Shown here: positions 1,286-62,111 of the stretch, in pieces
Layout of the letters: the number at the start of each line of letters is the position of its first letter
Numbering within the stretch: the first letter of the stretch is position 1
Assembly (NCBI GenBank): GCA_049695975.1
Contig: JBAVTE010000012.1
Coordinates: forward strand, 7,665 to 71,664
Length of the DNA: 64,000 nucleotides
DNA from: Minisyncoccia bacterium
GTDB taxonomy: Bacteria; Patescibacteriota; Minisyncoccia; Phycocordibacterales; GWA1-40-21
Direction of reading: 5' to 3'
The notes under the pieces: generated by a model
The model's database searches: none
What the model was told of the DNA's origin: nothing
What the model saw: the letters and a program-made list of their open reading frames with translations, nothing else
Program-made: the position numbers and the translations under genes

Positions 1286-1298
1286 AAGATAAAAAAAT

Positions 1299-1335
1299 AC
1301 CCCGTCTACCAATTGGTAGACGGGGTATTTTTTTG
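1299..1335. terminator. bidirectional rho-independent terminator
   Basis: Perfect 12-bp stem ACCCCGTCTACC/GGTAGACGGGGT around loop AATT. It is flanked by an A-run upstream and a T-run downstream, between convergent genes. Confidence 0.65.
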
Positions 1336-1685: not shown

Positions 1686-2252
1686 ATGGGAATATTAGAA
1701 TATAGCGAAGTCACAGAGAGAAAATATATTGTTTTTGAAGGGCAACCTTATGAGGTTATTTCGTCACATGTTTTTAGAAAACAGATGAGAAAGCCCGTAA
1801 ATGCTACAAAACTCCGAAATATGATCACTGGGAAAATTACCGAGATTTCTTTTCATCAATCAGAAAAAGTGAAAGAGGCAGATATAGAGATTAAAAATGC
1901 CAAGTTTTTGTATAAGACAAAAGGTGAATTTTGGTTTTGTGAACCAGAAGACCCAAGCAAGAGATTCAAACTTGAAGAAGCTATCATGGGTGATCAGTCT
2001 AGATTTATGAAAGCAAACTCTCTAATAGAAATTATGATTTTTGAAGAAAAGATTATTGGTACCAAACTACCGATAAAAGTGGAACTCAAAGTGACCGAGG
2101 CCCCGCCAGCAGTGAAAGGCGATACAGCAACAGGCGGTACAAAACAAATTACTCTTGAAACAGGAGCTGTCATAAACGCTCCCCTATTTGTAAATGAAGG
2201 AGATACCGTTAGTATAAATACTGTGACAGGAGAATATACGAGCAGAGTTTAA
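1686..2252 (+). CDS. efp: translation elongation factor P
   Basis: Full-length similarity to EF-P (GQPYEV..., KGDTATGGTKQITLETGAVINAPLFVNEGD). The ORF-track start at 1665 is a TTG; the ATG at 1686 gives the canonical N-terminus. Confidence 0.9.
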   Translation: MGILEYSEVTERKYIVFEGQPYEVISSHVFRKQMRKPVNATKLRNMITGKITEISFHQSEKVKEADIEIKNAKFLYKTKGEFWFCEPEDPSKRFKLEEAIMGDQSRFMKANSLIEIMIFEEKIIGTKLPIKVELKVTEAPPAVKGDTATGGTKQITLETGAVINAPLFVNEGDTVSINTVTGEYTSRV

Positions 2253-2401
2253 AAACGCAAGAAAAAAGGAAACCCTCCACAAAATACTTTTGCCCATCAC
2301 GAAAATTTTTTGCTAAAAATTTTCTCTGTCCGTCGCCAGTCGCGACTCCCAAGGATGTTCAAAAGTACTTTGTTACAAGTTTCCTTTTTTCTTGCGTTTT
2401 T
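2251..2401. repeat. family-B conserved stem-enclosed intergenic element, copy 1 (candidate composite bidirectional terminator or structured RNA)
   Basis: A perfect 23-nt inverted repeat (AAAAACGCAAGAAAAAAGGAAAC / GTTTCCTTTTTTCTTGCGTTTTT) encloses about 105 nt. It overlaps the efp stop on one side and the recA stop on the other. The core TTGCTAAAAATTTTCTCTGTCCGTCGCCAGTCGCGACTCCCAAGG recurs at 54745-54788. Confidence 0.5.
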
Positions 2402-3437
2402 AAATTTCCTTCAACTTCGCTTTGATTTCTTTCAAAATATCGTTTGCAATTTTTGTGTTATCACGGAGAAATTGGCGAGTAGCGTCGTAACCACGGCCTA
2501 GTTTTGTCTCACCATATTCATAGGAATTTCCAGATTTTTTGAGAATTCCCTGACTCTCTCCAAGGGCAATAATCTCCCCTTCCTTTGAAATGCCTTCGTT
2601 GTACATAAGATCAAATTCTGTCTGTTTGAAAGGAGCAGCCACTTTATTTTTGACAACCTTTACTCTGACACGACCACCCATTATTTCCTCGCCTTTCTTT
2701 ATTTGTGCAATTCTGCGAATATCTAGACGAACTGAAGTGTAAAACTTGAGTGCCTTTCCGCCGGGTGTCGTCTCTGGATTACCAAACATCACACCGATCT
2801 GCATTCTGATCTGGTTTATGAAAATAACTATTGTCTTGGACCTTGCAACTATAGCAGTAAGCTTTCTGAGTGCTTGTGACATAAGTCTAGCTTGCTTACC
2901 GACATGATATGCACCCATATCGCCTTCTATTTCATCCTTTGGAGTGAGAGCGGCTACGGAGTCGATGACAATCACATCCATTTTTCCAGATCTGACCAAG
3001 CTATCGACAATCTCAAGTCCTTGTTCACCTGTGTCTGGCTGAGAAATTAAAAGCTGATCTATTTTTACACCGATTTTCTTTGCATATTCCGGATCCATTG
3101 CGTGTTCTGCGTCTATGTAGGCACAAATACCTCCCTTTTTCTGTGCTTCAGCCACTACATGCAGAGCGAGGGTGGTCTTACCAGATGATTCTGGACCAAA
3201 GATCTCAACTATTCTGCCTCTTGGAAGACCACCGACGCCGAGTGCGGCATCTAGGCCAATAGAACCAGTCGAAATGGCGTCCACATCTACATGAGGTTTT
3301 TCTCCAAGCATCATTATGGACTCATCACCAAATTTTGCTTTAATTGCATTTAGAGTGTCCTCTATTTTCTGATCTTTTACATCCAGAGTATTTTTTACTT
3401 CTTTTTCCTTCACTTCCTTCCCAAATTTTTTCGCCAT
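2400..3437 (-). CDS. recA: recombinase RecA
   Basis: Walker [13 protein letters not shown] and the canonical RecA core (IDAEHA..., [10 protein letters not shown], loops L1/L2). Confidence 0.95.
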
Positions 3438-3441
3438 TTTA

Positions 3442-3780
3442 TTATTTTGTTAAATTATTAATTTTTTTCCTATTTTTAATATTACCATAAATCCAGCCAA
3501 CTATAGATCCAAAAATAAAATATGTTATTGAACTAAATATAATTATCGCAACATATGCCCAAAAAGGTGATGATGTTAATATCAAGGATGGAGTGAATAA
3601 TAATCCTAAAATTAATCCAGGGAAAGAAACTGCAAGAGTAATAATTCTTTCCCCTCCTTGGAAAATTAGATTAGCTAAATAAGCAGTAAGAAACATCAAA
3701 ATCGATATCGAAAACCCAACGCCACCTCCTTTTTCCCAATATGGCCAATCTTTCCAAAATTTCATTTTATTCAAGATCAT
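3442..3780 (-). CDS. hypothetical small integral membrane protein
   Basis: 112 aa, several predicted TM segments; no family recognised. Confidence 0.35.
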
Positions 3781-3813: not shown

Positions 3814-3977
3814 AAGAAAAAACAAGAAAATTTTATTAGGGGTGGCGATCCTGTTCCTTTTGAACTGACTTGGGAGGCTGACTGAGCCGAGCACGAGGAA
3901 TTTTTTAGCAAAAAAATATCCGTGCAGTTCAAAAGGAATGGGTCGACAGGACCCCGATAAATTTTCTAGTTTTTTCT
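3814..3977. repeat. family-A conserved stem-enclosed intergenic element, copy 1 (candidate composite terminator after rpsR, or structured RNA)
   Basis: An outer 19-bp imperfect stem (3814-3833 / 3959-3977) encloses a long internal hairpin and the core AGTTCAAAAGGAATGGGTCGACAGGACCCCGATAAATTTT. The core recurs at 55924-55963. A U-run follows on the minus strand. Confidence 0.5.
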
Positions 3978-6559: not shown

Positions 6560-6604
6560 AAAGAAAAGGGGCACGCGCATCAGATGCGCGGGCCCCTTTT
6601 CTTT
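6560..6604 (-). terminator. rho-independent terminator downstream of glyQS
   Basis: GC-rich 14-nt inverted repeat GGGGCACGCGCATC / GATGCGCGGGCCCC (one mismatch, about 12 pairs form) flanked by A/T runs. Confidence 0.65.
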
Positions 6605-10528: not shown

Positions 10529-13500
10529 TCAGGAAATTTGGAAAGAAAAATCTGCCACATCTGATGACAATTGCCCGACATTTTCTCCCTTGAGAGAAAG
10601 AGAAGAAAAAGAAAATTCTTTTATATTTGTAGCCTTCAAAATATCTTTTTCATATTTTTCCAAAAATTTCTTGCCTTTTTCGTCTGTATGAATCGTAAGA
10701 GCAACTACATCGCTCGGACTCAAACCTTTAGTTTTTCGTAATTCCTGTAAAGCTCGTATCACTTCTCTCACAATTCCCTCTTCTTTGAGCTCCTCCGTCA
10801 TCGTCGCGTCTAGCTCCACTCCTCCCGAAATACCACTATCAAAAAGAACTTCCTTTACATTCAATTCTTCTTTCACAAGGAGACTAAGCGACTCATCTGT
10901 AGATATTTTTTGATTTTTTATTTTAACCGACAAAAGTGGCTGTCTGACTTTTATGCCAAGCCTTGTTCTTGCCTCAAGCCCTAGGGAAACCACTTCTCTC
11001 ACTTGTTTCATTTCTTCTATGATTGTTTTTTCTTCACCCGAAAGATCCCCGACAAAGTTTTCCGGCCAATTTTCCAAGTGAACACTTTCCTTTTGTAATC
11101 CTCCAGTAATTTTTAAATACAAATCTTCTGCAAGAAAAGGCATTGATGGTGCCAAAAGTTTAGAAAATTCCAAGATCACTGTTTTTGTGGTAAACATTGC
11201 TGAGTTTTTGTCTTTTTCATCTTCAGATTTGAATCTGTCACGAGATCTTCTCAAAAACCATGTCGAAAGATCATCCACAAAGTCCCCGATAGGTCTCACT
11301 GCTTTGTCTAGCTCGTAACCATCTGTAAACTTTGTAATTTCAGTTGCTGTTTCTTTTAATCTCGTAAGAATCCATCTATCTAAAATATTTGTTGGGTTTT
11401 TGTATTCTTCAGATTTAGTAATATCCAAGTCAAAACCCCCATACATTTCAAAAAATGTATAAACATTTTGAAGTCTCATAATAATTTTCTTCAAAATTTC
11501 ATCCACACCCTTGTCAGAAACTCTCAAATCTTCCGCTTTTACAACAGGTGAAGATAAAAGATAATATCTCAAAGCATCGGCACTATATGTACTTACAAGA
11601 TCCATTGGACTCGTGTAATTTTTCAAACTCTTTGACATTTTTTGTCCATCTGATGCCAGGACAATCCCATTTACCATAACATTTTTGTATGATGATCTCC
11701 CAAAAAGTGCCACAGAAAGTACCAACATTGAATAAAACCATCCTCTTGTTTGATCCACCCCTTCAGAAATAAAGTCGGCAGGAAAACCAATGCCTTTTTC
11801 TGGATTAAATTTATTCAAATTTTCAAATGGATAATGAGACTCGGCATAAGGCATAGATCCAGATTCAAACCAACAATCAAAAACTTCAGGGATTCTTTTC
11901 ATAGTTCCACCACATTTACATTTCAAAGTGACTTCATCTATAAAAGGTCTATGCAGATCAAGTTCATAATTTCTATTGTGTGGAATAGGCGAAAAAGGGA
12001 TTTCTCTTATTTCGGAATTTTCAATAAAAGCTACTCCCTGCTCTTTTGTTTTGAGTGCTTCGGTTCTATTTAAACCTTGCACCCCACAAAACATAAGCCA
12101 GATGGGAGTATTGTGAGAAATAATTAAAATATTTTTATCTTCATTTTTCGCATCTATTTCATAGAGAAAATCCGTCATCCTTTTTTTGACATTTTCATAA
12201 TTTTCTCCTCCGCGCGGAGTCTTTGTAAATTTTTCTTCTCTAGTACCAAAAAATGCTTGATACTCGAGGCCTTTCTTGCCATCAAATTCTCCACCGTAAA
12301 TTTCATGAAGCCTCTCATCGTAGATAATTTTGTCTTTTGAATAACCGATATTTTCTGCAATTATTTCAGCAGTTTCTTTTGTCCTCATAAAAGGAGAACA
12401 ATAAATAATGTCTATCTTATCTTTTAGTTTTTTTGCGGCAGCGACTGCTTGTTCTCTACCTACTGCAGTGAGATGATTTATAGATTTTGGATTTGAACTC
12501 AAGATTCCAGAAACATTGCTTTCTGCTTCGCCGTGTCTCACAATCAAAAATTTATTTTTACTTTTTGTCCTTTCTTTTATTTCTTCAATTGAGCCAATAA
12601 ATTCTTTTTCTGGACAACAGTCACATTTCCATACAGGAAGCGGTGCACCCCAAAATCTGGATCGTGAAATAGACCAATCGCGAACATTTTCGAGCCATTT
12701 ACCAAATCTTCCATCTCCCACTTCTTCTGGAACCCATTTTATTTTTTTATTTTCTTCTACAAGCTTATCTTTTAATTGAGTTACCTCTACAAACCATGAG
12801 CTTGTAGCATAATTGAGAAGAGGTGTCTGACATCTCCAACAATGTGGATATGAGTGAATAAACTTTTCTTTTGCATAAAGAGTCCCCTTTCCAGCCAAAA
12901 ACTTGATGATTTCAATATCGGCGAGCTGGGGATTTTCTATTGGTTTAACCTGTGCTTCGTGAAAATCTATTACTTCTTTTTTAAATCTACCATCCATTCC
13001 GACATGTTGAATAAAAGGTAATTTTTGCTCTTTACCCAAATTCATATCATCTTCTCCAAATGCAGGTGCAATATGAACTATTCCAGTACCGTCTTCTGTA
13101 GTAACAAAAGATGCACCATAAACTTTAAAACCATTTTCTATATTTTTTAAATCAGCATTATTATAATAATCAAAAAGTGGTTTGTAAAACATTCCGATAA
13201 GTGCATTGCCCTCAGTTTTTTCTAAGATTTCATATTTTTCTTTTATAACAGAAAGTCTAGCTTCAGCCAAAATAAATTTCTCATTTCCAATTTTTATTTT
13301 TACATAATCTACTTCTGGATTGACTGCCAAAGCAACATTCCCAGGCAAAGTCCATGGGGTCGTCGTCCAAGCCAAAAAGAATGTTCCAGGCTCATCTACA
13401 AGCTCAAATTTGACTGTGACAGATATATCGGTGATATCCTTGTATCCTTGACCGACTTCAAAATTGGATAAAGTGGTACCACAATGAGGGCATAAATGCA

Positions 13501-14098
13501 TGGACTTGAATCCTTCATAAAGTAAGCTTTTTTTGTGTAATTCTTTGAAAATCCACCATACTGTTTCAGTATATGTAGGGCTCATTGTCCGATAGTCGTT
13601 TTCCATATCTACAAAGCGACCCATTCTCGGAATTACTTTTTTCCATACATCTGCATAAGTAAAAATCTTTGTCCTCGCTACATCATTAAATTTTTCTATA
13701 CCATATTCTTCAATATCTTTTTTTGATTTTAAACCTATTTCATCGGCAACAATATTTTCAATAGGCAAACCATGCGTATCCCAACCCCATCTTCGAGCAA
13801 CATGATTTCCTTTCATTGTTTGATATCTACCTACATAGTCTTTCATTGTTCCAGCAAGAATGTGACCATAATGTGGAAGCCCGGTGGCAAAAGGCGGACC
13901 ATCATAAAATACAAATTCACCTTTAGAAAAGGGTTTTTCCAAAGTTTTTTTGAAAATTTCGTTTTCTTGCCAAAATTGTAGGATTTCCTCCTCTCTTTCC
14001 GCAATTTTGCTCTTTTTTGTGGAATTTAAGGTCTCGCCTCCAAGAGAGTTCCCGGATTTTTCCTTTTCTTGTGTTTTTTCTTGGGGTTTTTTAGACAT
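10529..14098 (-). CDS. ileS: isoleucine--tRNA ligase with an inserted histidine-phosphatase (PGAM-like) domain
   Basis: HIGH region PPFATGLPHYGHIL, CP1 editing domain (TTTPWTLPGN..., GTGIVHIAPAFGEDD), WSISRSRFWGAPLPVW and KMSKSLKN. About 200 extra aa with RHGEAESN...LIISHNTPI lie between the CDCC and KCKCGG zinc knuckles. Start set at MSKKPQE (14098). Confidence 0.9.
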   Translation of the reverse strand: MSKKPQEKTQEKEKSGNSLGGETLNSTKKSKIAEREEEILQFWQENEIFKKTLEKPFSKGEFVFYDGPPFATGLPHYGHILAGTMKDYVGRYQTMKGNHVARRWGWDTHGLPIENIVADEIGLKSKKDIEEYGIEKFNDVARTKIFTYADVWKKVIPRMGRFVDMENDYRTMSPTYTETVWWIFKELHKKSLLYEGFKSMHLCPHCGTTLSNFEVGQGYKDITDISVTVKFELVDEPGTFFLAWTTTPWTLPGNVALAVNPEVDYVKIKIGNEKFILAEARLSVIKEKYEILEKTEGNALIGMFYKPLFDYYNNADLKNIENGFKVYGASFVTTEDGTGIVHIAPAFGEDDMNLGKEQKLPFIQHVGMDGRFKKEVIDFHEAQVKPIENPQLADIEIIKFLAGKGTLYAKEKFIHSYPHCWRCQTPLLNYATSSWFVEVTQLKDKLVEENKKIKWVPEEVGDGRFGKWLENVRDWSISRSRFWGAPLPVWKCDCCPEKEFIGSIEEIKERTKSKNKFLIVRHGEAESNVSGILSSNPKSINHLTAVGREQAVAAAKKLKDKIDIIYCSPFMRTKETAEIIAENIGYSKDKIIYDERLHEIYGGEFDGKKGLEYQAFFGTREEKFTKTPRGGENYENVKKRMTDFLYEIDAKNEDKNILIISHNTPIWLMFCGVQGLNRTEALKTKEQGVAFIENSEIREIPFSPIPHNRNYELDLHRPFIDEVTLKCKCGGTMKRIPEVFDCWFESGSMPYAESHYPFENLNKFNPEKGIGFPADFISEGVDQTRGWFYSMLVLSVALFGRSSYKNVMVNGIVLASDGQKMSKSLKNYTSPMDLVSTYSADALRYYLLSSPVVKAEDLRVSDKGVDEILKKIIMRLQNVYTFFEMYGGFDLDITKSEEYKNPTNILDRWILTRLKETATEITKFTDGYELDKAVRPIGDFVDDLSTWFLRRSRDRFKSEDEKDKNSAMFTTKTVILEFSKLLAPSMPFLAEDLYLKITGGLQKESVHLENWPENFVGDLSGEEKTIIEEMKQVREVVSLGLEARTRLGIKVRQPLLSVKIKNQKISTDESLSLLVKEELNVKEVLFDSGISGGVELDATMTEELKEEGIVREVIRALQELRKTKGLSPSDVVALTIHTDEKGKKFLEKYEKDILKATNIKEFSFSSLSLKGENVGQLSSDVADFSFQIS

Positions 14099-14177
14099 TT
14101 TTTTATAAAAAGCTTGAAATCCCATTTTAGCAGTTTTTACAAAAAAAAGAAATCTCAAAAATTATTGAACTATATTT

Positions 14178-18761: not shown

Positions 18762-18852
18762 GAAAAATAAATGCCGTAAAAACTCTTATAGCTCGACTTC
18801 ATTCGGACAAAATGTAAAATAATAATTTTCCACCTCACTGCTCGCTCATCGA

Positions 18853-18895
18853 AATAAAAATCACCCGCCTTATGATGGCGGGCGATTTTTATTTT
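18853..18895 (-). terminator. rho-independent terminator after the SWIB-domain gene
   Basis: CACCCGCC / GGCGGGCG hairpin followed by a U-run on the minus strand. Confidence 0.5.
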
Positions 18896-18907: not shown

Positions 18908-19165
18908 TTATGACAGGTGTTTGGAAACGAGTTTAGTCATTTCAAACATGTTGACTACTGCTTTGCCACCGAAAACTTTTTTCAAATTGGCATCAGCATT
19001 GATATTTCTCTTGTTTTTTGGATCTTGAAGATTGTTTTTCTTTATGTAAACCCAGAGGCCTTTCACAACTTCTGATCTTGGCATAGGGCCCTTTCCTACC
19101 ACGGCTGCTAAATCAGCACTGACTGTCATTGGCTTCATAAACGCAGACACTTTTTTTTCTACCAT
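18908..19165 (-). CDS. SWIB/MDM2 domain protein
   Basis: 85 aa; LWVYIKKNNLQDPKNKRNINADANLKKVFG matches the SWIB fold signature. Confidence 0.7.
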   Translation of the reverse strand: MVEKKVSAFMKPMTVSADLAAVVGKGPMPRSEVVKGLWVYIKKNNLQDPKNKRNINADANLKKVFGGKAVVNMFEMTKLVSKHLS

Positions 19166-19269
19166 ATTATATTTTGCCGTCCGCCAAAGGCAGACTAAGC
19201 TTAATTAAACTAATAAGCTAACTCTGGGTAGTATATCACAAGAGGGTATTCTTGGGAAACTCTCAGAAT

Positions 19270-19539: not shown

Positions 19540-19893
19540 CTATTTGTTATTTTTCTTGCTCTTTTTCACAGAATAACCCTTCTTGGCCTTATCTGCCACG
19601 AAAAGACTCTTTCTCCTGTCCAAGCCTGCTTTTACCTCATCCCAGGTATAATATTCACCCCTAGCAAACTCTTCATCCGCTTTCTTCATTCTGGACCTGA
19701 ATTTAGAGTCAGCAGATAGAGTCAAATCTTCCATCAAATTTTCATATTCTTCAGCAGACATCACGGCCATTTTGGCCTTGCCATTTTCAGTAAAAATGTA
19801 GTGATTGCCTTGTTTCTGAATTTTCTCAGCAATGTCAAAAATACTGCTCCTAGCTTCGGTGATAGAAATTATATTTTTCATTTTTATAGACAT
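19540..19893 (-). CDS. Phd/YefM-family type II antitoxin (with a Lys-rich C-terminal tail)
   Basis: IISITEARSSIFDIAEKIQKQGNHYIFTENGKAKMAVMSAEEYENL is the Phd/YefM N-terminal fold. Confidence 0.75.
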   Translation of the reverse strand: MSIKMKNIISITEARSSIFDIAEKIQKQGNHYIFTENGKAKMAVMSAEEYENLMEDLTLSADSKFRSRMKKADEEFARGEYYTWDEVKAGLDRRKSLFVADKAKKGYSVKKSKKNNK

Positions 19894-32416: not shown

Positions 32417-34804
32417 TTAATTCCCTGATATATCACCATAATAACCAATAGTAATATATTTTGAATAACTTCCAAGATTTATAGAAATAGTTCCAGAATC
32501 TTCTGTAGATGACCAGTAATCTCCACTGGAAAAACCGACCCATTGTGCGGAATAGCTTCCTGTGTTTACAGTATTTTTTTGATTGTACATTGCATACAAC
32601 TGATCTCTTGCGGGCAAATACCAATCAGTATATCCTCCGTAATCTAAATCTGAACATATTTTAGCCGCAATACCTTCTGTAGAACAAGCCCCTATTATAG
32701 CTGTAGTATTTCCAGATCCATTTGAAGTAGATTGGGATCCCAAACCTATGACTGTTCCGTCGCACCCCCAAGATGCACCAGATGAATTATTCATTGGAGA
32801 AATATAAAGAGATGAATCATTATAAGCAACAAATGGTAGAGTCCCCCACCAATTATAAGTTCCACTCCACGTCGCAGTACCACCTGCCCCGTCTCTAGCA
32901 CACAAATACAAAGTCGTTCCTCCAACAGGAGCATTTAAAACAGCGCCATTTGTAGTCACTGTGCCACCTGTAGTACAAGCTCCATTCATTGTATTGCTAC
33001 CAAAGTTGTAACGAACTTCGGTCAAACCTGAACCACCAGTATCGCTCGCTGAGATTGTAGCGGTTCTTGGGGAAAAATACCAAGCAACATCAGAATTATT
33101 CGCGCTTATACTTGGGATAGTGGAATCAATATTATTTACCGGAGAATTACAAGTTGTCATATTGCCAGAATTGTCTGAAATACCTACAGTGCAAGTGTTT
33201 CCGTTTGAGCTTGTTGTGGTACAATTTCCGCCTGCAATATTTATTCCACTACCACCAATATCCGTTGATCCAGACAAAGTGAAAGCTTGAGTACCAGAAG
33301 TTCTCCAAGTACTAGAAGTAGGTGACCAAGTACCGCAGGTTGGAGGAGTAGAGTCTCCCCAATTGTAAACACCACTCCAAGTTGCAGTACTACCAACACC
33401 GTCTCTAGCACACAAATACAAAGTCGTTCCTCCAACAGGAGCATTTAAAACAGCGCCATTTGTAGTCACTGTGCCACCTGTAGTACAAGCTCCATTCATT
33501 GTATTGTTACCAAAGTTGTAACGAACTTCGGTCAAACCTGAACCACCAGTATCGCTCGCTGAGATTGTAGCGGTTCTTTGAGAGCTGTACCAAGTACTGG
33601 AATTATTATTTGCAGAAACACTTGGAGCTGTAGAATCAATATTATTTATTGGAGAGGTACAAACCGTAGTTCTATTCACGTTATCAGATACTGTAACAGT
33701 ACAAGTATTTCCATTTCCAGATCCTGTTGTACAAGAACCACCAGCAACATTTATTCCGCTCTGGCTATCCGTTGACCCAGACAAAGTAAAGGTTTGAGTA
33801 CCAGAAGTTCTCCAAGTACTAGAAGTAGGTGACCAAGAACCGCAAACTGGAGCTGTAGTATCAACCAAGTTTCCTGGAGAAGTACAAGCTGCCGTATTGC
33901 CAGCATTGTCTGAAATATTGACATTGCAGATATTTCCATAAGCACCACCTGTTGTACAAGAACCTCCCGCTATACTTATTCCACTACCTCCACTATCTGT
34001 GGAATTGGATAATGTAAAAGCTTGACCCCCAGAAGATTTCCAAGGACTAAAAGCAGGAGACCATGTACCGCAGGTTGGTACTGTATTTTCCCAGTTGTAA
34101 GTTGCGATGGCAGATACTCCTTGCCCTGAGTTATAGTTGTCTAAATTATCCTTTGCGCACATATATACTCTTGCCCCTCCAGCAGGAGGATAAATAACGG
34201 TACCAGCAAGAGAATAAACAGGGTCGCCATCAGAACAAGGTTTAGGATTCACACCAAAATTATAAGGTCCATACATGTAATGAGCATAAGATATACCAGA
34301 ACCACCATCGCTTGCAGATAATACTGCAGATATTTGAGAATTAAACCAAGCGCCAGAACTATTACTTGCATATACATTAGGAGCTGTCACATCATAATTA
34401 AATGTTGCGTAATTACTAACAACATAGCCCGAGGGACTATAATATGCTGCAAATCTCATATTATTCATAGTCTGCCCCCAATCTAAAGTGGCGTAACATG
34501 CACCAACACCGCAACCCATTCCAGCAGAATAAGCCACCTGCTGCCAAGCACCGCCGTTAATAGAAGAATAACAAGCGTTACCCCCAACTGGTGTAAAATC
34601 TACACACGAGCCCATCGTTGTTACCCCACGAAACCAACTCCCATTACCACCACCGCCGTAGATTGTACCATTAGCCATTACAGGATTGCTAATAGAATAA
34701 GCAAAAGCAGACTGAGCAAAAGCAAAAGAAAATAAAAATATCCCCAAAAGCGCGAGTAGTTTAATTTTGTTTGCTTTGATTTTCATTTTAATTTGAAACT
34801 CCAT
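32417..34804 (-). CDS. large secreted repetitive adhesin-like protein (tandem Cys-containing repeats; C-terminal Lcl/DUF1566-like domain GYTDWYLPARDQL)
   Basis: 795 aa with a signal peptide. Three CGTWSPTSSTWRTSGTQ(A)FTLSGSTD repeats. Two near-identical 170-aa repeats contain about 190 nt of identical DNA (32.90-33.08 kb and 33.41-33.59 kb). Confidence 0.6.
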   Translation of the reverse strand: MEFQIKMKIKANKIKLLALLGIFLFSFAFAQSAFAYSISNPVMANGTIYGGGGNGSWFRGVTTMGSCVDFTPVGGNACYSSINGGAWQQVAYSAGMGCGVGACYATLDWGQTMNNMRFAAYYSPSGYVVSNYATFNYDVTAPNVYASNSSGAWFNSQISAVLSASDGGSGISYAHYMYGPYNFGVNPKPCSDGDPVYSLAGTVIYPPAGGARVYMCAKDNLDNYNSGQGVSAIATYNWENTVPTCGTWSPAFSPWKSSGGQAFTLSNSTDSGGSGISIAGGSCTTGGAYGNICNVNISDNAGNTAACTSPGNLVDTTAPVCGSWSPTSSTWRTSGTQTFTLSGSTDSQSGINVAGGSCTTGSGNGNTCTVTVSDNVNRTTVCTSPINNIDSTAPSVSANNNSSTWYSSQRTATISASDTGGSGLTEVRYNFGNNTMNGACTTGGTVTTNGAVLNAPVGGTTLYLCARDGVGSTATWSGVYNWGDSTPPTCGTWSPTSSTWRTSGTQAFTLSGSTDIGGSGINIAGGNCTTTSSNGNTCTVGISDNSGNMTTCNSPVNNIDSTIPSISANNSDVAWYFSPRTATISASDTGGSGLTEVRYNFGSNTMNGACTTGGTVTTNGAVLNAPVGGTTLYLCARDGAGGTATWSGTYNWWGTLPFVAYNDSSLYISPMNNSSGASWGCDGTVIGLGSQSTSNGSGNTTAIIGACSTEGIAAKICSDLDYGGYTDWYLPARDQLYAMYNQKNTVNTGSYSAQWVGFSSGDYWSSTEDSGTISINLGSYSKYITIGYYGDISGN

Positions 34805-39557: not shown

Positions 39558-40394
39558 TTATTTTATCTCATAAGTCACACTAACATTCGAAGTAACTGTA
39601 TTCTGTCCTGCAGGTATAACAGCGGGGGCTGAAGCACCTGTTTCTGCACGATTTGATTTACTATACATCACAGAATCGTAATAAACAGGATAGTTTCCAG
39701 ATTCCGAGAAAGCAGTGATTTTGACCAATTTTACACCTAAACTTTTTGCCAAATTTTTAGCTTGAGCTCTAGCATCTTGAACTGCCAAATCTCTGGCTTG
39801 TAATTTTACTGCGTCTTCATTATCCACAGTGAAAGATAGTCCGCTCATATTTGTTGCGCCAAATCCTCCCACACCAGAAAGGATAGCCCCCGCCTTAGAA
39901 ATATCTCTGATTTTTACGGAGACTGTCTGACTGACATCATATCCAGACAAAACTTGTTTACCATTATATGGATAAATAGTAGTGCTTATATAATCATACC
40001 TTGGATAAATGCTATAATCTGTAGTTTTAATATCTTTTTCATCAATGCCAGAAGATTTCAAAAAATTAATAATCTTTGTCATCTTTTCAGTAGAAGCGGT
40101 CTGCGCTTTACCTACATCCATATCTTCAGCTAAAACAGAGAAAGAAATATTTGCAATGTCAGGTTTCACTATTACTTCACCTTTACCAGAAACGGTGATA
40201 GTATCTTTTTGAACATTGCTTTTATTGTACCCATGTCCACCGCAGATCATTCTACCTGCAATGATGACAACGACAATAAGCAAGATAATTCCCATTATTT
40301 TATGTCCTTTACCTGCTGGGCACCATCCGCATTTCTGACACATTTTGCAATCACAACCTTGACCCGAATTCGCATTTTGATTATTTATTTCCAT
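39558..40394 (-). CDS. SIMPL (DUF541) domain protein with Cys-rich N-terminus and TM
   Basis: ITVSGKGEVIVKPDIANISFSV and C-terminal TVTSNVSVTYEI match SIMPL; N-terminal CDCKMCQKCGWC cluster. Confidence 0.7.
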   Translation of the reverse strand: MEINNQNANSGQGCDCKMCQKCGWCPAGKGHKIMGIILLIVVVIIAGRMICGGHGYNKSNVQKDTITVSGKGEVIVKPDIANISFSVLAEDMDVGKAQTASTEKMTKIINFLKSSGIDEKDIKTTDYSIYPRYDYISTTIYPYNGKQVLSGYDVSQTVSVKIRDISKAGAILSGVGGFGATNMSGLSFTVDNEDAVKLQARDLAVQDARAQAKNLAKSLGVKLVKITAFSESGNYPVYYDSVMYSKSNRAETGASAPAVIPAGQNTVTSNVSVTYEIK

Positions 40395-40492
40395 ATTTTT
40401 TACTTATTTCCATCAAAGACAGATTTAAGTTAATTAAACTAATAATACCCCCTATTATATCACACATATTAGACACAACAATTATTAAAACA

Positions 40493-41308: not shown

Positions 41309-41351
41309 TAGTGTAATATAACAGAAATATGTAAATATACAAAACAAAAAA

Positions 41352-41462
41352 ATCTTCTGGGAAAGGTGTTTTTATGAACATTGCACAGGCCGACTGGGCC
41401 GAGCATAACAAATTTTCAGCAGAAAATTATGTGCGTTCAGAAAAATACTTTTCCCAGGAGAT
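41352..41462. repeat. stem-enclosed intergenic element (13-bp inverted repeat ATCTTCTGGGAAA/TTTCCCAGGAGAT around about 85 nt), possible composite terminator after the methyltransferase gene
   Basis: Long-range inverted repeat with one mismatch, an inner AATTTTC-AGCAG-GAAAATT hairpin, and a U-run on the minus strand. Same architecture as families A and B but a different core. Confidence 0.3.
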
Positions 41463-41473
41463 TTTGTTCTAGA

Positions 41474-42364
41474 TTATAAATTCCACCGAGCAAAAATTCC
41501 ACAAGGAAGCAAACGTCCTGACTTTGATTCTTCTATGGTAAGTTCCCCCGCTTCAAAACTACCGTTGTATTTTTTTAAAATTGACTCCAAAGCATTGTAA
41601 TAAGCAGTAGCAGAATAACCAGCAGCATAGCCATTTATCAGAAAAAGAACAGGATTATCTGAAAGAATCTTAGAACATTCTTCAATAAGTTTGAGAAAGT
41701 CATCTTCAATTTTCCAAATCTCACCTTTGCCTCCCCTACCAAAAGATGGTGGATCCATGATAATCCCATCGTATTTATTTCCCCTCTTTATTTCCCTCAT
41801 CACAAATTTTCTAGCGTCGTCCACGAGCCATCTTACCGGCATACCACTCAAACCCGAAAGGATGGCATTCTCTTTCGCCCAAGTAATTGTAGATTTTGAA
41901 CCATCTATATGAGTAACTTCTGCTCCAGCCGAAAGTCCGGCAAGCGTAGCTCCGCCAGTGTATCCAAAAAGATTAAGAAGTTTGACTGGTTTTCCAAGGC
42001 CAGACCTTAATAAAACCTCTTTTTTAACTTTTTCTTTTATCCATTTCCAGTTTGATTCTTGCTCTGGAAAAACGCCAGTGTGTTTAAAAGCTGTTGGCTT
42101 AATATTAAATTTTAATTCATCAAAACTTATTTGCCATTCATTTGGCATGCTTACGCTTTTCTTCCAGCCTTTCTTTCCGCTTTCATTATAAAAATATCCA
42201 TCGGCTCCTTTCCAATCACTTTCAGGTAAAACTTTCTTCCACAAAGCCTGCGGATCTGGCCTTCGTAAAATATATTTTCCGTATCTTTCAAGTTTTTCAC
42301 CATCTCCACTGTCCAAAAGTTCGTAATCTACACTTACTTTTGTAATTAAAGTTTTTAGTTCCAT
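41474..42364 (-). CDS. class I SAM-dependent rRNA methyltransferase (RlmI/YccW-like)
   Basis: GYTGGATLAGLSAGAEVTHID SAM-binding motif and IIMDPPSFGRG (DPPxF). Confidence 0.7.
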   Translation of the reverse strand: MELKTLITKVSVDYELLDSGDGEKLERYGKYILRRPDPQALWKKVLPESDWKGADGYFYNESGKKGWKKSVSMPNEWQISFDELKFNIKPTAFKHTGVFPEQESNWKWIKEKVKKEVLLRSGLGKPVKLLNLFGYTGGATLAGLSAGAEVTHIDGSKSTITWAKENAILSGLSGMPVRWLVDDARKFVMREIKRGNKYDGIIMDPPSFGRGGKGEIWKIEDDFLKLIEECSKILSDNPVLFLINGYAAGYSATAYYNALESILKKYNGSFEAGELTIEESKSGRLLPCGIFARWNL

Positions 42365-54428: not shown

Positions 54429-54680
54429 ATGGAAAACGAAACTCAAAAAAAACACACAGAGGAAGGAAATGGGGCGATTATTGCTGTATTTATAGTTGTG
54501 TTACTCCTTACTGTCGGTGGATTCTATTTTGTGAATCAAAGATTGGCACAACAAAAATTAATGCGCCAAACCGCTACTACAGCTGAGATCACAAATACAA
54601 ATGACGATCTTGGTAGTATAAAAAGCGACCTTGATAGCATAAATGTAAACAACATAGCTACGAGTGCAAGTAAGTTGTAA
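54429..54680 (+). CDS. hypothetical small single-pass membrane protein
   Basis: 83 aa with one TM (AIIAVFIVVLLLTVGGFYFV). Confidence 0.3.
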   Translation: MENETQKKHTEEGNGAIIAVFIVVLLLTVGGFYFVNQRLAQQKLMRQTATTAEITNTNDDLGSIKSDLDSINVNNIATSASKL

Positions 54681-54697: not shown

Positions 54698-54823
54698 GCT
54701 TTTTCTTCCCTCCAAAAATATATCTCGAAAGACACAAAAATTTCTTGCTAGAAATTTTTTATGTCCGGCGCCAGTCGCGCCTCCCAATGTCTCTCTCAAT
54801 ACATTTTCTTCGGGAAGAAAAAA
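54698..54823. repeat. family-B conserved stem-enclosed intergenic element, copy 2
   Basis: Outer stem TTTTTCTTCCC / GGGAAGAAAAA encloses the core TTGCTAGAAATTTTTTATGTCCGGCGCCAGTCGCGCCTCCCAATG. It lies between convergent genes and overlaps neither stop but fills the gap. Compensatory changes relative to copy 1. Confidence 0.5.
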
Positions 54824-55872: not shown

Positions 55873-55902
55873 ATTCTGCCAGTTTATATTAAAAATAAAA
55901 AA

Positions 55903-55978
55903 AGTAAAGAAAAATATTTGTGAAGTTCAAAAGGAATGGGTCGGCAGGACCCCGAGAAATTTTATATTTTTCTTTACT
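55903..55978. repeat. family-A conserved stem-enclosed intergenic element, copy 2 (after the polA stop, 30 nt upstream of the tig start)
   Basis: Perfect 15-bp outer stem AGTAAAGAAAAATAT / ATATTTTTCTTTACT encloses the core AGTTCAAAAGGAATGGGTCGGCAGGACCCCGAGAAATTTT; a U-run follows on the minus strand. Confidence 0.5.
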
Positions 55979-55980
55979 AT

Positions 55981-58455
55981 TTAAATCCCCTCCATGTCTC
56001 TCCAATTATCCCCCACTGACACATCGGTTTTACAAACCACTCCTTTTGTTTGCTCTGGAGAAACAACACTTTCCATTATATTTTTTATATCTTTTGAAAT
56101 TGTTTCAACAAGTTTTTCCTCAATTTCATAGACAAGTTCGTCGTGAACTTGCAAAATCAATCTAACTTTGTCTGTTAGTTTTTTTCCATGCAAAAACTCA
56201 TCTACTTTTATCATTGAAAGTTTTATAATATCTGCCTCGGTGCCTTGGATAGGTGCGTTTATAGCCATCCTTTCAGCCATTGCGCGGATATATGGCAATG
56301 GTGACTTCAAACCTTCAAAATATCTTCTTCTGCCAAAAAGTGTTTCTGTAAAACCATTTCTTTCTGCCTCTGCTTTTATACTATCCAGATATTTTGCCAA
56401 TCCAGAAAACTTTCTGAAATATTCTTCGAGATATTTTTGTGCCTCTTCCCTTGTGGAATTTATATTTTGTTTTAACGCAAGCACACCCATCCCATACATA
56501 ATTCCAAAATTTATTACTTTTGCCCTCCTCCTCATTTCTTTGTCTACCTTTTCTAGAGGAACTCCAAAAACTTCCGATGCGACAGCAGTATGCACGTCCT
56601 CTCCATTTCTAAAAATTTCTAAAAGTTTTTTATCGCCCGATAGAAATGCTGCTATGCGAAGCTCTATTTGTGAATAATCGAATGAAACAAGTTTGAAACC
56701 TTTTTCCGCAATAAAAACTTTTCTCACATTTCTTCCAAGCTCACTTTTTGTGGGAATATTTTGTAAATTTGGTTCTTGTGAAGACATTCTGCCAGTTGTC
56801 GTCCCAGTCTGTAAAAATTTTGCATGCAATCTATCTTTTTTATCCAAAATTTTTGATATTACATCAATATATGTAGAAAGAAGTTTTTGCAATTCACGAT
56901 AATCAAAAATAAGTGGAACTATCGGATGCATATCTCGCATTTTTTCAAGCTCAGATTCCTTGGTAGATAAATTTCCCCCACCTGTTTTCTTTTGATTTTT
57001 TGCTTTTAAACCAAGTCTATTAAAAAGTATTTCTCCCATCTGTTTTGGGGAGTTTATATTAAATTCTGTCCCCGAGAGTTCCCAAATTTTTTTTTCTTTC
57101 TTGGAAAGTTCGGTGTGATATTCTTTTGAAAGATCTTCGACTTCTTTTTTGTTTATTTTTACTCCAGTTTTTTCCATTTCTAAAATTATTGGAATAAGAG
57201 GTTTTTCTATTTTTTCAAAGACATTTTTAAGACCTTTATTTTCAAGATCTTTCATCAGTATTGCCTTTGCAGAGTCTAAATCTTTTATTCCTGCCTGCCC
57301 CACATGCACAGGCATAGCAGACAGGCCAGTAAGATCAAAAACTTCTTCAAGGGTGGGATTTGTGGTATTTGAATTTAAAAGCCATGTGGCGATAAAAAGT
57401 TCTTTTTGTTTAAAAATATATTCCTTGCTTCCAAAAGTCCCTTCGTCCGCGGTACTATTTCCGTCTGTGTTAGTATAATCCCGAAGCAATCCAGATTCTG
57501 ATTTATTAGGTTGCTTCACTTTGTTCAGAATAACTGAACCTTTTAAAACATCATCAAGCCTGGAACCAAGTGTTCTAAAATCAAGCTCGGCCCAAAGTTG
57601 TTTAATTTTCGATACATCAAAATTTTCTTTCCATGTTTTTTCTGGTAAAACAAAATCAATCGGTGCATCTCTTCTGATAGTTGCAAGCATTTTGGAAAAA
57701 CTTGCTTCTTCTTCCCCATCTTTTAGGAGATTTACAATTCTTTCTGTAATTTTTACATTTTTGAAAGCATTCGTGTCATTTTTTAATTTTTTATATATAT
57801 CTTCTATTGTTCCAAAATTTTGTATGAGAATTTCTGCAGTTTTCTCACCAATTCCTTTTATACCAATAATATTATCAGATGGATCTCCCCGAAGACCTTT
57901 ATAATCCACTAAAAGTTTCGGCAAAAAGCCAAATCTCGCTACCACCGCTTTTTCATCATAAATAATTGTATCTTTAATCCCCTTTTTCAAGGTATAAACT
58001 TTCACCCTACCATCTTCCACAAGCTGTAAAGTATCCATATCACCAGATGCTATGACCACTTCAAGATTTTTTATTTTTTTAGTTTCTTCTACTATTGTAC
58101 CAATGATATCATCCGCCTCAAAACCTTCTTTGTCATAAATAGGAATATTAAGTGCTGTAAAAATATTTCTAGATCTTTTGAGCTGTGAAATAAGCCCTTC
58201 GTCTGTCTTTGCTCTACCTGCTTTATAATCTTTGTAGGCCTCATGTCTGTATGTCGGCTTTGGAAGATCAAAACATGCGACAATGTAATCTGGTTTGAGT
58301 TCGGTAATTATTGCAAGTAACATTGTCGAAAGGCCATAGAGTGCTCCAGTAGGTTCGCCTTTACTTGACACAAAATCAGGCAATGCATGATAAGCACGAT
58401 GAATAATAGCGTGAGAATCTAGTAAAACAAGTTTTTTGTTTTTTTCTTTTTCCAC
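55981..58455 (-). CDS. polA: DNA polymerase I
   Basis: 5'-nuclease N-terminus (LVLLDSHAIIHRAYHA) and family-A polymerase motifs (RRRAKVINFGIMYGMG, QVHDELVYE). Confidence 0.9.
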   Translation of the reverse strand: MEKEKNKKLVLLDSHAIIHRAYHALPDFVSSKGEPTGALYGLSTMLLAIITELKPDYIVACFDLPKPTYRHEAYKDYKAGRAKTDEGLISQLKRSRNIFTALNIPIYDKEGFEADDIIGTIVEETKKIKNLEVVIASGDMDTLQLVEDGRVKVYTLKKGIKDTIIYDEKAVVARFGFLPKLLVDYKGLRGDPSDNIIGIKGIGEKTAEILIQNFGTIEDIYKKLKNDTNAFKNVKITERIVNLLKDGEEEASFSKMLATIRRDAPIDFVLPEKTWKENFDVSKIKQLWAELDFRTLGSRLDDVLKGSVILNKVKQPNKSESGLLRDYTNTDGNSTADEGTFGSKEYIFKQKELFIATWLLNSNTTNPTLEEVFDLTGLSAMPVHVGQAGIKDLDSAKAILMKDLENKGLKNVFEKIEKPLIPIILEMEKTGVKINKKEVEDLSKEYHTELSKKEKKIWELSGTEFNINSPKQMGEILFNRLGLKAKNQKKTGGGNLSTKESELEKMRDMHPIVPLIFDYRELQKLLSTYIDVISKILDKKDRLHAKFLQTGTTTGRMSSQEPNLQNIPTKSELGRNVRKVFIAEKGFKLVSFDYSQIELRIAAFLSGDKKLLEIFRNGEDVHTAVASEVFGVPLEKVDKEMRRRAKVINFGIMYGMGVLALKQNINSTREEAQKYLEEYFRKFSGLAKYLDSIKAEAERNGFTETLFGRRRYFEGLKSPLPYIRAMAERMAINAPIQGTEADIIKLSMIKVDEFLHGKKLTDKVRLILQVHDELVYEIEEKLVETISKDIKNIMESVVSPEQTKGVVCKTDVSVGDNWRDMEGI

Positions 58456-61766: not shown

Positions 61767-62111
61767 TTGTTCTTTAATTTTTTTAGTTCTTGATTTTCTT
61801 TGGCGAGAGCATAGTATGTTAAATAGTGAACATTGAAAATTAAAATTTCACCTTGTGGGTGAAATTGAGTCGAGAGCAGAAATCTCTAAACAATACTTTA
61901 AACTTGGCGTGTAAAGTTAAACTTAGCTTTAAGGATAACCTCAGCAGTAATCCGAAGATTAAAACCACGATGTCCTTGAAGATAAATTCGTAAATACCCT
62001 TGCGGGATTCAATTGTTTAGAGATTTGTGCGCTCCACTTTTAAAAAACGAAAAACGAAACAAAAAGACCCGAAAGTAGGTCTCTGCAAAGAGTATATCAC
62101 AAAACAATCTT

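What the first reader, a model, noticed from the sequence alone, without database searches (positions are those of the whole stretch)
2251..2401. Family B: conserved about 125-150 nt intergenic element with sequence-divergent but complementary outer stems, exactly filling a convergent efp/recA gap
A 23-bp perfect long-range stem overlaps both flanking stop codons and encloses a core that recurs at 54698-54823, also between convergent genes. The second copy has an 11-bp outer stem of unrelated sequence. The core shows compensatory changes: the GUCGC-GACUG-GCGAC hairpin becomes GGCGC-GACUG-GCGCC, and UUUUU-AGC-AAAAA becomes UUUCU-AGC-AAGAA. This argues for selection on RNA structure rather than a simple transposon remnant. 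Two readings fit: a new family of composite bidirectional terminators, or a structured ncRNA with a CCUCC / GGAGG-containing segment.
Basis: seen in the sequence. Interest (0 to 1): 0.6.

Follow-up and report, generated by a model that had tools for sequence, protein, structure and literature searches.

The report
Dispersed hairpin repeat family in CPR bacteria
The efp/recA gap holds one copy of a previously undescribed, multi-copy hairpin repeat found patchily in the tiny genomes of candidate-phyla-radiation bacteria; it has a conserved three-way-junction core inside long, fast-changing stems and looks more like a small mobile repeat than a dedicated terminator or a single RNA gene.

Summary
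The 64-kb window holds four copies, not two: 2248-2404 (+), 54698-54823 (+), 3815-3977 (-) and about 41346-41468 (-). The core is two hairpins on a variable long stem (P1). It recurs nearly unchanged in other Paceibacterota, in a Saccharibacteria MAG and in lake and groundwater metagenomes. Thirteen copies show strong covariation: 25 of 30 pairs change on both sides and 92% of cells pair. G.U pairs are almost absent. Rfam 15 has no match. The family is patchy. Close relatives have plain bidirectional terminators, or a different family member, at the same efp/recA site. Copies occur in either orientation, between convergent, tandem and divergent genes. Decayed and truncated copies exist, and a short-read contig breaks inside the core at both ends. 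One subfamily is flanked by a constant TCGCTC direct repeat. No transposase, recombinase or reverse transcriptase lies in the window. Best reading (about 0.55): a non-autonomous, MITE/REP-like mosaic repeat that acts as a folded single strand, with terminator-like behaviour as a side effect at convergent gene ends. A selected structured RNA is not excluded (about 0.25). Novelty: a new variant of a known kind. Interest is moderate.

The parts
2248..2404 (+). Copy A, the finding itself: a whole palindromic element that fills the efp/recA gap. 'Plus sense' is defined as the window + strand of this copy.
   Evidence: Inverted repeat I1 has arms 2248-2298 / 2354-2404. The covariance-model match is 2285-2367 at 97.8 bits. 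Folding z-scores are -11.4 (+) and -11.6 (-).
2248..2273 (+). Copy A outer stem, 5' arm (26 bp, perfect); includes the efp stop codon at 2250-2252.
2379..2404 (+). Copy A outer stem, 3' arm; includes the recA stop codon at 2400-2402 (minus strand).
2301..2324 (+). Copy A hairpin 2: GAAAATTTTT-TGCT-AAAAATTTTC. This A/T-rich hairpin is conserved in sequence in all copies.
   Evidence: 10 pairs, 98.5% of cells paired, 7 pairs with changes on both sides.
2325..2331 (+). Copy A junction between hairpins 2 and 1 (TCTGTCC), nearly invariant across copies.
   Evidence: Alignments A3 and A4.
2332..2346 (+). Copy A hairpin 1: GTCGC-CAGTC-GCGAC. The loop CAGTC is conserved. The stem covaries across copies (GGCGC, GGCT, GGCC, GGTGC).
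2347..2353 (+). Copy A junction TCCCAAG (GGGA-containing on the other strand), conserved in 11 of 13 copies.
54698..54823 (+). Copy B, between a small ORF (54429-54680, +) and tig (54832-55872, -). Hairpin 2 is 54736-54759 and hairpin 1 is 54767-54781. The outer stem is 54700-54710 / 54812-54822.
   Evidence: covariance-model match 54720-54802 at 88.1 bits.
3815..3977 (-). Copy C, a diverged copy between rpsR and a 112-aa ORF upstream of recA. Hairpin 2 is 3897-3921, hairpin 1 (GGCT-CAGTC-AGCC) is 3876-3888, and TCCCAAG is 3869-3875. The inner stem is TTCCTTTTGAACTG/CAGTTCAAAAGGAA and the outer arms are 3815-3833 / 3959-3977. The 5' arm carries an extra terminator-like hairpin, GGGTC-CTGTC-GACCC, at 3940-3954.
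   Evidence: I13; 56.3 bits, E 2.8e-12.
41346..41468 (-). Copy D, a decayed copy between a SAM-methyltransferase gene (41474-42364, -) and folD. Hairpin 1 is GGCC-CAGTC-GGCC. The 3' junction has degenerated to TGTGCAAT.
   Evidence: (45.9 bits, E 1.7e-9).
55899..55982 (-). Solo copy of the 5'-arm module of copy C (89% identical to 3912-3973), without the core, inside its own 19-bp stem. It lies between polA and tig.
   Evidence: D7; I12.

Best explanation
This is one copy of a dispersed, non-autonomous palindromic repeat family of Patescibacteria (CPR). It is comparable in kind to MITEs, REP/REPIN, ERIC, BOX and Correia elements.

**Anatomy.** Each copy has a conserved core of about 60 nt: junction AC, an A/T-rich hairpin, junction YYYUGUCC, a G/C-rich hairpin with loop CAGUC, and junction UCCCRAG. 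The core sits at the tip of a long stem whose sequence turns over quickly.

**Shown.**
- The family is multi-copy.
- Its occurrence is patchy and polymorphic between relatives.
- Orientation is independent of the neighbouring genes.
- The fold is kept by paired changes.

**Inferred.**
- The unit spreads or recombines as a folded single strand. The strand complementary to the window + strand of copy A appears to be the active one, because arm mismatches are G.U/G.T-compatible almost only on that strand.
- A protein encoded elsewhere in the genome would recognise the conserved loops and junctions.
- At convergent gene ends such as efp/recA, the long stem flanked by A and T runs probably also stops or stabilises transcripts from both sides. 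That is a by-product, not the reason the family exists.
For: **Copy number and sequence spread.**
- The window holds four copies in 64 kb.
- Near-identical cores with unrelated stems occur in a Paceibacterota MAG, a Saccharibacteria MAG, a Hainich groundwater contig and Trout Bog lake contigs.

**Patchy and polymorphic occurrence.**
- L036, L038-L046 (about 110 kb of syntenic Paceibacterota DNA) have no intact copy. Plain terminators sit in the orthologous gaps.
- L034 and L037 have two to three copies in 13-14 kb.
- The 94%-identical-Efp relative L047 has a different family member at the efp/recA site.
- The ileS/recO gap carries the element in opposite orientations in L034 and L037. It carries none in L036, L045 or the window.

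**Decay, duplication and flanks.**
- Decayed copies: copy D, L032b and L038. Truncated copy: L037c.
- L037c has a stem arm identical to that of L037a.
- The Logan contig L001 ends inside the core at both ends.
- Five copies are flanked by TCGCTC|GGnnTATC...GATAnnCC|TCGCT(C).

**Structure and pairing statistics.**
- 91.9% of cells pair, 25 of 30 pairs change on both sides, and 0 of 500 shuffles reach the observed values.
- Only 3 to 8 G.U cells occur among 385.
- In the long arms, mismatches are 16 A.C against 1 G.U.

**No autonomous partner or known home.**
- No mobile-element gene lies in the window.
- No Rfam family matches.
Against: - No transposase, recombinase or autonomous parent element was found in any locus held, so mobility is inferred from distribution and not from a mechanism.
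- The four window copies have no shared terminal repeats and no target-site duplication.
- No clean filled/empty pair with near-identical flanks was obtained.
- Loops and junctions are more conserved than stems across CPR classes. That pattern is also what a selected functional RNA would show.
- Paired changes in stems could reflect selection on an RNA.
- The arm-mismatch asymmetry rests on about 10-16 events, and some of them share ancestry.
Confidence: 0.55

Rival explanations
1. A selected structured RNA family. It could be a cis-acting 3'-UTR module (mRNA stabiliser or processing site) or a trans-acting small RNA whose unpaired UCCC/CCUCC (or GGGAGG) segment pairs with ribosome-binding sites or rRNA. 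On this reading, multi-copy spread is secondary.
For: - The three-helix fold has conserved loops and junctions and covarying stems.
- The core is about 85-90% identical between Paceibacterota and Saccharibacteria while the stems are unrelated.
- Seven of nine copies lying between same-direction genes have the plus sense co-directional with those genes, so they would be co-transcribed.
- L034a sits inside the ileS 3' UTR, ahead of the canonical terminator.
- The strand asymmetry of wobble-compatible mismatches shows that one strand matters.
Against: - No promoter is conserved in either sense.
- Two of the nine tandem copies are antisense to their neighbours, and one copy lies between divergent genes.
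- The strand favoured by the wobble asymmetry (minus sense) is the opposite of the strand usually co-transcribed (plus sense).
- G.U pairs make up about 1-2% of paired cells, which is far below typical RNA families (my own knowledge).
- Close relatives lack the element altogether.
- Decayed and truncated copies are common.
Confidence: 0.25
2. A dedicated composite bidirectional transcription terminator. The long stem with A and T runs terminates both convergent transcripts, and the core is a conserved cap.
For: - Copies A and B lie between convergent genes.
- Copies A, B, C and D have A-rich 5' and T-rich 3' flanks to the stem.
- Element-free relatives have ordinary bidirectional terminators at the same efp/recA position.
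- This genome does use long perfect palindromic terminators: 1291-1334, 6560-6604 and 18852-18894.
Against: - L024 lies between divergent gene starts.
- L032a follows a canonical terminator, and L034a precedes one.
- L008 has no T run after the stem in the transcribed direction.
- The terminator scan does not call any of the elements.
- A conserved, asymmetric 60-nt core is not needed for termination.
Confidence: 0.08
3. The core is a new self-cleaving ribozyme or other catalytic or ligand-binding RNA carried on a repeat, as hammerhead and twister motifs often are.
For: - It is a compact three-way junction with nearly invariant junction and loop nucleotides and freely covarying stems.
- The loops CAG (hairpin 1) and YUG (hairpin 2) could pair with each other (sequence reading; not tested).
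- The distribution is multi-copy and orientation-independent.
Against: - No match to any ribozyme or riboswitch model in Rfam 15, even at E up to 10.
- The junctions do not fit the hammerhead core (CUGANGA / GAAA), by inspection.
- The 20-45-bp, almost perfectly Watson-Crick stems are atypical for such RNAs.
- There is no consistent position upstream of any gene class.
Confidence: 0.05

Closest known systems
ERIC/IRU, BOX, RUP and Correia (NEMIS) elements: 100-160-nt intergenic imperfect palindromes of enterobacteria, pneumococci and Neisseria (my own knowledge)
   Same: - Similar size (about 95-165 nt).
- Intergenic, and often co-transcribed at gene ends.
- Multi-copy and non-coding, folding into a long hairpin.
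- Modular or mosaic build, for example the separable 5'-arm module at 55899-55982.
- Patchy occurrence between strains.
   Different: - In those families the terminal arms are the conserved part. Here the centre is conserved and the arms are unrelated between most copies.
- No TA duplication as in Correia elements.
- No sequence similarity.
- The host is CPR bacteria with genomes of about 1 Mb.
- The same core occurs in two CPR classes.
REP / REPIN / BIME repeats mobilised by RAYT (Y1 HUH) transposases (PMC3116915, PMC3479197 seen in the search list only; details from my own knowledge)
   Same: - Hairpin-forming extragenic repeats.
- The fold is kept by paired changes.
- A strand-specific single-stranded form is the presumed active species.
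- They lie at gene 3' ends and can stabilise or terminate transcripts.
   Different: - REPs are palindromes of 20-40 nt with a conserved GTAG head, and REPINs are inverted doublets of the same REP.
- Here there is no GTAG and no doublet of like units.
- The core is an asymmetric pair of unlike hairpins.
- No RAYT gene was seen in the DNA held.
Intrinsic bidirectional terminators
   Same: Copy A is a long stem with an A run before it and a T run after it, lying exactly between two convergent stop codons. Relatives have plain terminators at the same place.
   Different: - About 100 nt of conserved structured sequence replaces the 3-8-nt loop.
- The family also occurs where no terminator is needed, or next to a separate canonical terminator.
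Integron attC sites and IS200/IS605 ends: folded single-strand recombination substrates (my own knowledge)
   Same: - Structure rather than sequence is conserved in the stems.
- One strand is the active one.
- Sequences and lengths vary between sites.
   Different: - attC sites conserve the outer R boxes and vary in the centre, and they lie in same-orientation arrays next to intI.
- IS200/IS605 ends are two similar subterminal hairpins with no long palindrome.
- Neither arrangement is seen here.

Membership tests
MITE (miniature inverted-repeat transposable element) | Many dispersed copies within one genome | tested here: met
   Four copies in 64 kb. Two to three copies lie in 13-14 kb of L034 and L037. 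Two copies lie on one Trout Bog contig.
MITE (miniature inverted-repeat transposable element) | Terminal inverted repeats of the same sequence in all copies of a family | tested here: inconclusive
   - The outer arms of the four window copies are unrelated to each other.
- A subfamily (L029, L034a, L034b, L037a, L037b) shares loose termini GGnnTATC/GATAnnCC.
- L037a and L037c share an identical arm.
MITE (miniature inverted-repeat transposable element) | Target-site duplication flanking each copy | tested here: inconclusive
   A constant TCGCTC direct repeat flanks five copies. None flanks copies A-D, L004, L008 or L032a.
MITE (miniature inverted-repeat transposable element) | Insertion polymorphism between related genomes | tested here: met
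   Both the efp/recA gap and the ileS/recO gap are filled, empty or differently filled among relatives.
MITE (miniature inverted-repeat transposable element) | An autonomous parent element with the same ends that encodes a transposase | tested here: not met
   - No transposase, integrase or RT domain was found in the ORFs scanned with Pfam (most window ORFs of at least 110 aa) or by inspection of the remaining window ORF translations, nor next to the copies elsewhere. The exception is a reverse-transcriptase gene (RVT_1; I take it for DGR-type from its neighbour) near L029.
- Whole genomes could not be searched.
REP/REPIN-RAYT system | 20-40-nt imperfect palindrome with a conserved GTAG head; REPIN = inverted doublet of the same REP | tested here: not met
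   The core is two unlike hairpins with no GTAG, and the arms are not copies of a common REP.
REP/REPIN-RAYT system | A single RAYT (Y1 transposase) gene flanked by REPs in the same genome | not testable with these tools
   Only 64 kb of this genome is available, and it holds none.
Intrinsic (bidirectional) terminator | G+C-rich stem with a short loop, followed directly by a T run (on both strands if bidirectional) | tested here: inconclusive
   - A/T runs flank the stems of copies A-D.
- The 'loop' is about 100 nt, the outer stem is A/T-rich, and the scan does not call it.
- L008 lacks a T run.
Intrinsic (bidirectional) terminator | Always located at transcript 3' ends and acting as the only terminator there | tested here: not met
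   L024 lies between divergent starts. L032a and L034a lie next to separate canonical terminators.
Any described RNA family (Rfam 15: ribozymes, riboswitches, 6S, SRP, RNase P, tmRNA, sRNAs) | Covariance-model match at or near the family's gathering score | tested here: not met
   - No gathering-level match in the window, L004 or L008.
- At E up to 1 (L008) or 10 (copy A), only hairpin-shaped miRNA noise scoring far below threshold.
- ARAGORN finds no tRNA or tmRNA.
Integron attC site | Conserved outer R''/R' boxes (RYYYAAC/GTTRRRY), variable centre, same-orientation array next to intI | tested here: not met
   The pattern is the opposite: a conserved centre with variable outer arms. Copies lie in both orientations among housekeeping genes, and there is no integrase.

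The most novel reading that the evidence does not exclude
The conserved three-way-junction core is a new class of functional RNA, such as a small ribozyme or a specific protein-binding module. It would be disseminated on a repeat through CPR bacteria, in the way hammerhead and twister motifs ride on repeats. Its conservation across Paceibacterota and Saccharibacteria would then reflect function rather than recent transfer.
Probability: 0.12. Interest if true: 0.8.

Novelty: new variant of a known kind. Interest (0 to 1): 0.5.

Why it matters
CPR/Patescibacteria genomes are about 1 Mb, densely packed and thought to be poor in mobile DNA. A structured repeat at about one copy per 16 kb therefore points to an active or recently active way of spreading DNA in these organisms. 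Two features support this:
- it is shared between CPR classes;
- it is absent from close relatives.

The repeat matters in three practical ways:
- it breaks short-read assemblies, as contig L001 shows;
- it changes the 3' ends of housekeeping genes such as recA, tig, ileS and groEL;
- its 'conserved centre, variable arms' build does not fit the standard MITE or REP models, so finding its partner enzyme, or an RNA function, could reveal a new mobilisation mechanism.

For annotation, it gives a ready covariance model to mask or label these intergenic regions.

Tried and rejected
- **Known RNA families.** Rfam gave nothing at gathering level or at permissive E-values, on copy A and on L008. By inspection I also rejected SRP RNA, 6S RNA, RNase P fragments, tmRNA, hammerhead, HDV-like, retron msr/msd and riboswitch readings. 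The reasons were no motif match, multi-copy occurrence and no consistent gene context.
- **Chance hits of the pattern scans.** Nine of the 11 genome hits and most metagenome hits are in high-GC coding DNA or lack the stem. I discarded them.
- **Phage or plasmid carriage.** blastn against the phage and plasmid collections and two IMG/VR pattern scans found only one hit, and it was a chance match.
- **A promoter for an independent RNA gene.** No shared -35/-10 lies upstream in either sense, and the promoter scan is at background level.
- **Core inserted into the loop of a pre-existing terminator.** The arms are much longer and more A/T-rich than this lineage's terminators. Some arms are shared between copies or between genomes, for example the CTCCACAAAATRTTCTCG and TTTATAAASC inner arms. 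This reading is not sufficient, though it is not excluded for the outermost stems.
- **Link to the reverse transcriptase near L029 and to the NYN gene between L032a and L032b**. No such gene lies near the other copies, so I treated both as coincidence.
- **Clean empty-site comparison.** L036 and L037 share an identical Efp but are too diverged in intergenic DNA. DNA for the 87%-identity relative (P0002) was not available.
- **Literature.** Five searches found no description of such a CPR repeat.

Full report
**1. The observation**

The region 2248-2404 is a long imperfect palindrome.
- A perfect 26-bp outer stem (2248-2273 / 2379-2404) covers the efp stop codon (2250-2252) and the recA stop codon (2400-2402, minus strand).
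- The element therefore fills the 147-nt convergent gap exactly.

Inside the stem is an asymmetric core. Reading the + strand, which I call the plus sense, it is:
- junction AC;
- hairpin 2, GAAAATTTTT-TGCT-AAAAATTTTC (2301-2324);
- junction TCTGTCC;
- hairpin 1, GTCGC-CAGTC-GCGAC (2332-2346);
- junction TCCCAAG.

The core recurs at 54720-54802 inside an unrelated stem, between a small ORF and tig.

This is not chance.
- The 26-nt core pattern has 2 matches against 0.00 expected.
- Both strands of both copies fold far better than shuffles, with z from -6.8 to -11.6.

**2. More copies in the window**

I built a covariance model from seven copies and scanned the window with filters off. It finds four copies.

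| Copy | Model match | Strand | Score |
|---|---|---|---|
| A | 2285-2367 | + | 97.8 bits |
| B | 54720-54802 | + | 88.1 bits |
| C | 3855-3937 | - | 56.3 bits |
| D | 41366-41448 | - | 45.9 bits |

- **Copy C** lies between rpsR and a 112-aa ORF upstream of recA.
  - Its hairpin 1 is GGCT-CAGTC-AGCC.
  - It has a 14-bp perfect inner stem and a 19-bp outer stem.
  - Its 5' arm carries an extra small terminator-like hairpin.
- **The 5'-arm module alone.** That 5' arm, without the core, recurs at 55899-55982 between polA and tig.
- **Copy D** lies between a methyltransferase gene and folD. Its hairpin 1 is GGCC-CAGTC-GGCC and its 3' junction has decayed.
- **Assembly break.** A 1.6-kb public short-read contig carrying this recA (L001) ends inside the core at both ends. 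That is the usual signature of a repeat breaking an assembly.

**3. The family elsewhere**

Efp homologues place the window in Paceibacterota (Parcubacteria).

Exact-pattern scans found true relatives in several places:
- a Paceibacterota MAG (L004, 52% G+C);
- a Saccharibacteria MAG (L008), which is the same sequence as a Hainich groundwater contig (L015);
- Trout Bog lake contigs: L024, L027 (= L029) and L030 (= L032), with two hits on one 192-kb contig.

All other hits were chance matches with no stem.

The model then found further copies in loci fetched through Efp homologues:
- L034a;
- L037a;
- L037b;
- L032b;
- a variant, L034b;
- a truncated copy, L037c.

The core is about 85-90% identical across these lineages, while the outer stems are unrelated. 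Rfam 15 has nothing like it. Five literature searches found no description of it.

**4. Structure**

- On 13 copies, 91.9% of cells pair and 25 of 30 pairs show changes on both sides.
- None of 500 shuffles reaches any of the five measures. Sliding the partners drops pairing to 40-54%.
- RNAalifold independently recovers the long stem and both hairpins.
- Loops (CAGTC, TGCT) and junctions (TCTGTCC, TCCCAAG, CAC) are the most conserved positions.

Two further features stand out.
- **One-sided changes are almost absent.**
  - Of 385 paired cells, 351 are Watson-Crick.
  - Only 3 (plus sense) or 8 (minus sense) are G.U.
  - From my own knowledge, this is much lower than in ordinary RNA families. 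It fits a DNA palindrome, or a repeat whose arms are corrected against each other.
- **Arm mismatches are strand-biased.**
  - In the long arms there are 16 A.C mismatches, which are G.U or G.T on the minus-sense strand.
  - There is only 1 G.U on the plus sense.
  - The bias follows the element's own orientation, not the genome strand.
  - The minus sense also folds more stably in 7 of 7 copies.
  - One particular single strand therefore matters, either through selection or through damage to a single-stranded intermediate.
  - Some of these events share ancestry, so the effective count is nearer 10.

**5. Behaviour as a repeat**

*Orientation and context vary*.

| Context | Copies |
|---|---|
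| Convergent genes | A, B, L034b, L047 |
| Same-direction genes, plus sense co-directional | C, D, L004, L029, L032a, L032b, L034a |
| Same-direction genes, plus sense antisense | L008, L037a |
| Divergent gene starts | L024 |

No promoter is shared upstream in either sense.

*Occurrence is patchy.*
- About 110 kb of syntenic DNA from four other Paceibacterota genomes (L036, L038-L046) holds no intact copy, only one decayed remnant.
- Their efp 3' gaps contain plain bidirectional terminators.
- L037 shares an identical Efp with L036. It has copies in the ileS/recO gap and in the gap next to ftsK, where L036 has gaps of 21 and 12 nt.
- L034 has the element in the ileS/recO gap in the opposite orientation to L037.
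- In the window, ileS and recO overlap, so that site is empty.
- In the relative with 94% Efp identity (L047), the efp 3' gap holds a copy-C-type element with an 85-nt internal insertion, not a copy-A-type element.

*Ends and flanks.*
- Five copies (L029, L034a, L034b, L037a, L037b) are flanked by the same direct repeat and loosely conserved termini: TCGCTC|GGnnTATC...GATAnnCC|TCGCT(C).
- L037c shares an arm with L037a.
- If the ends were joined, they would form inverted arms around a 6-bp asymmetric spacer. That resembles a tyrosine-recombinase core site. This is an inference only.
- The window copies lack these flanks.

*No partner gene.*
- No transposase, recombinase or RT is encoded in the window.
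- The element was not found in the phage, plasmid or IMG/VR collections.

**6. Terminator reading**

Copies A-D have A-rich 5' and T-rich 3' borders, and relatives have terminators at the same efp/recA site. Copy A may well terminate or stabilise both transcripts.

As a general function this reading fails.
- L034a sits between the ileS stop codon and a canonical terminator. That terminator is also present in the element-free L045.
- L032a follows a canonical terminator.
- L024 lies between gene starts.
- L008 has no T run after the stem.

**7. Verdict**

The best-supported explanation (about 0.55) is a non-autonomous, modular palindromic repeat family of CPR bacteria.
- It is of the same kind as ERIC, BOX, Correia and REPIN elements.
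- It has an unusual build: a conserved asymmetric centre and variable arms.
- It probably acts as a folded single strand recognised by a protein encoded elsewhere.

A selected structured RNA (about 0.25) is not excluded, and the two readings are not mutually exclusive. A pure terminator (0.08) or a ribozyme (0.05) is less likely.

The inference that covariation rules out a transposon-like repeat is not supported.

This is a new variant of a known kind, of moderate interest. It is notable mainly because it sits in streamlined CPR genomes and is shared between CPR classes.

Noticed in passing
window 55899-55982 (and 3912-3973): A 62-nt repeat, 89% identical between the two sites, contains the hairpin GGGTC-CTGYC-GACCC followed by a T-rich tail. 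At 3912-3973 it is the 5' arm of copy C. At 55899-55982 it stands alone inside a 19-bp stem between polA and tig. The same module starts the element in L047.
   Followed up: partly
window 61868-62038: 27-nt inverted arms (89% complementary) enclose 117 nt in the 345-nt gap between a pilB-like ATPase gene and ruvB. This may be another structured non-coding element. Rfam gives no significant match (best is Gut-1, 17.7 bits against a threshold of 50).
   Followed up: partly
window 19152-19216 and 40381-40445: A 65-nt direct repeat (71% identical) contains GCCGTCCGCCAAAGGCAGAC. The first copy lies in a 780-nt gene-poor gap next to a Phd/YefM antitoxin gene (19543-19893).
   Followed up: no
window 1291-1334, 6560-6604, 18852-18894: Long, perfect or near-perfect palindromes (18-22-nt arms) flanked by A and T runs. 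These are the ordinary bidirectional terminators of this genome and serve as a baseline for the element's outer stems.
   Followed up: partly
L037 8640-8725, 11990-12050, 6575-6625: L037 carries other palindromic repeat families.
- One is GTCATTCCCGCGAAGGCGGGAATCC, of the form ATTCCC-N8-GGGAAT. From memory this resembles the Neisseria dRS3 repeat.
- Another is GAGGTGGAACCTT...AAGGTTCCACCTC.

Most intergenic gaps of L037 are 80-270 nt longer than in L036, which encodes the identical Efp.
   Followed up: partly
L029 134-1564: A 363-aa reverse transcriptase (RVT_1, E 2e-23) lies beside a gene that, by eye and without a family search, looks like a four-helix-bundle (Avd-like) protein. Together they look like a diversity-generating retroelement. 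They sit about 300 nt upstream of an element copy, with rpsT in between.
   Followed up: partly
L032 1211-1978: Two closely related element copies in the same orientation flank a 168-aa NYN-domain (predicted RNase) gene. Elsewhere, small unannotated membrane-protein ORFs sit next to copies at sites where relatives have no such ORF: window 3442-3780, window 54429-54680 and L034 10700-10990.
   Followed up: no
window 10532-14158: The isoleucyl-tRNA synthetase gene carries an inserted histidine-phosphatase (His_Phos_1) domain (1209 aa). The same architecture appears in all the related loci fetched.
   Followed up: no
window 32849-34099: Internal tandem repeats of about 510 and 735 nt (74-87% identical) lie inside a 795-aa ORF with no Pfam match. 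The ORF is next to type IV pilus genes.
   Followed up: no
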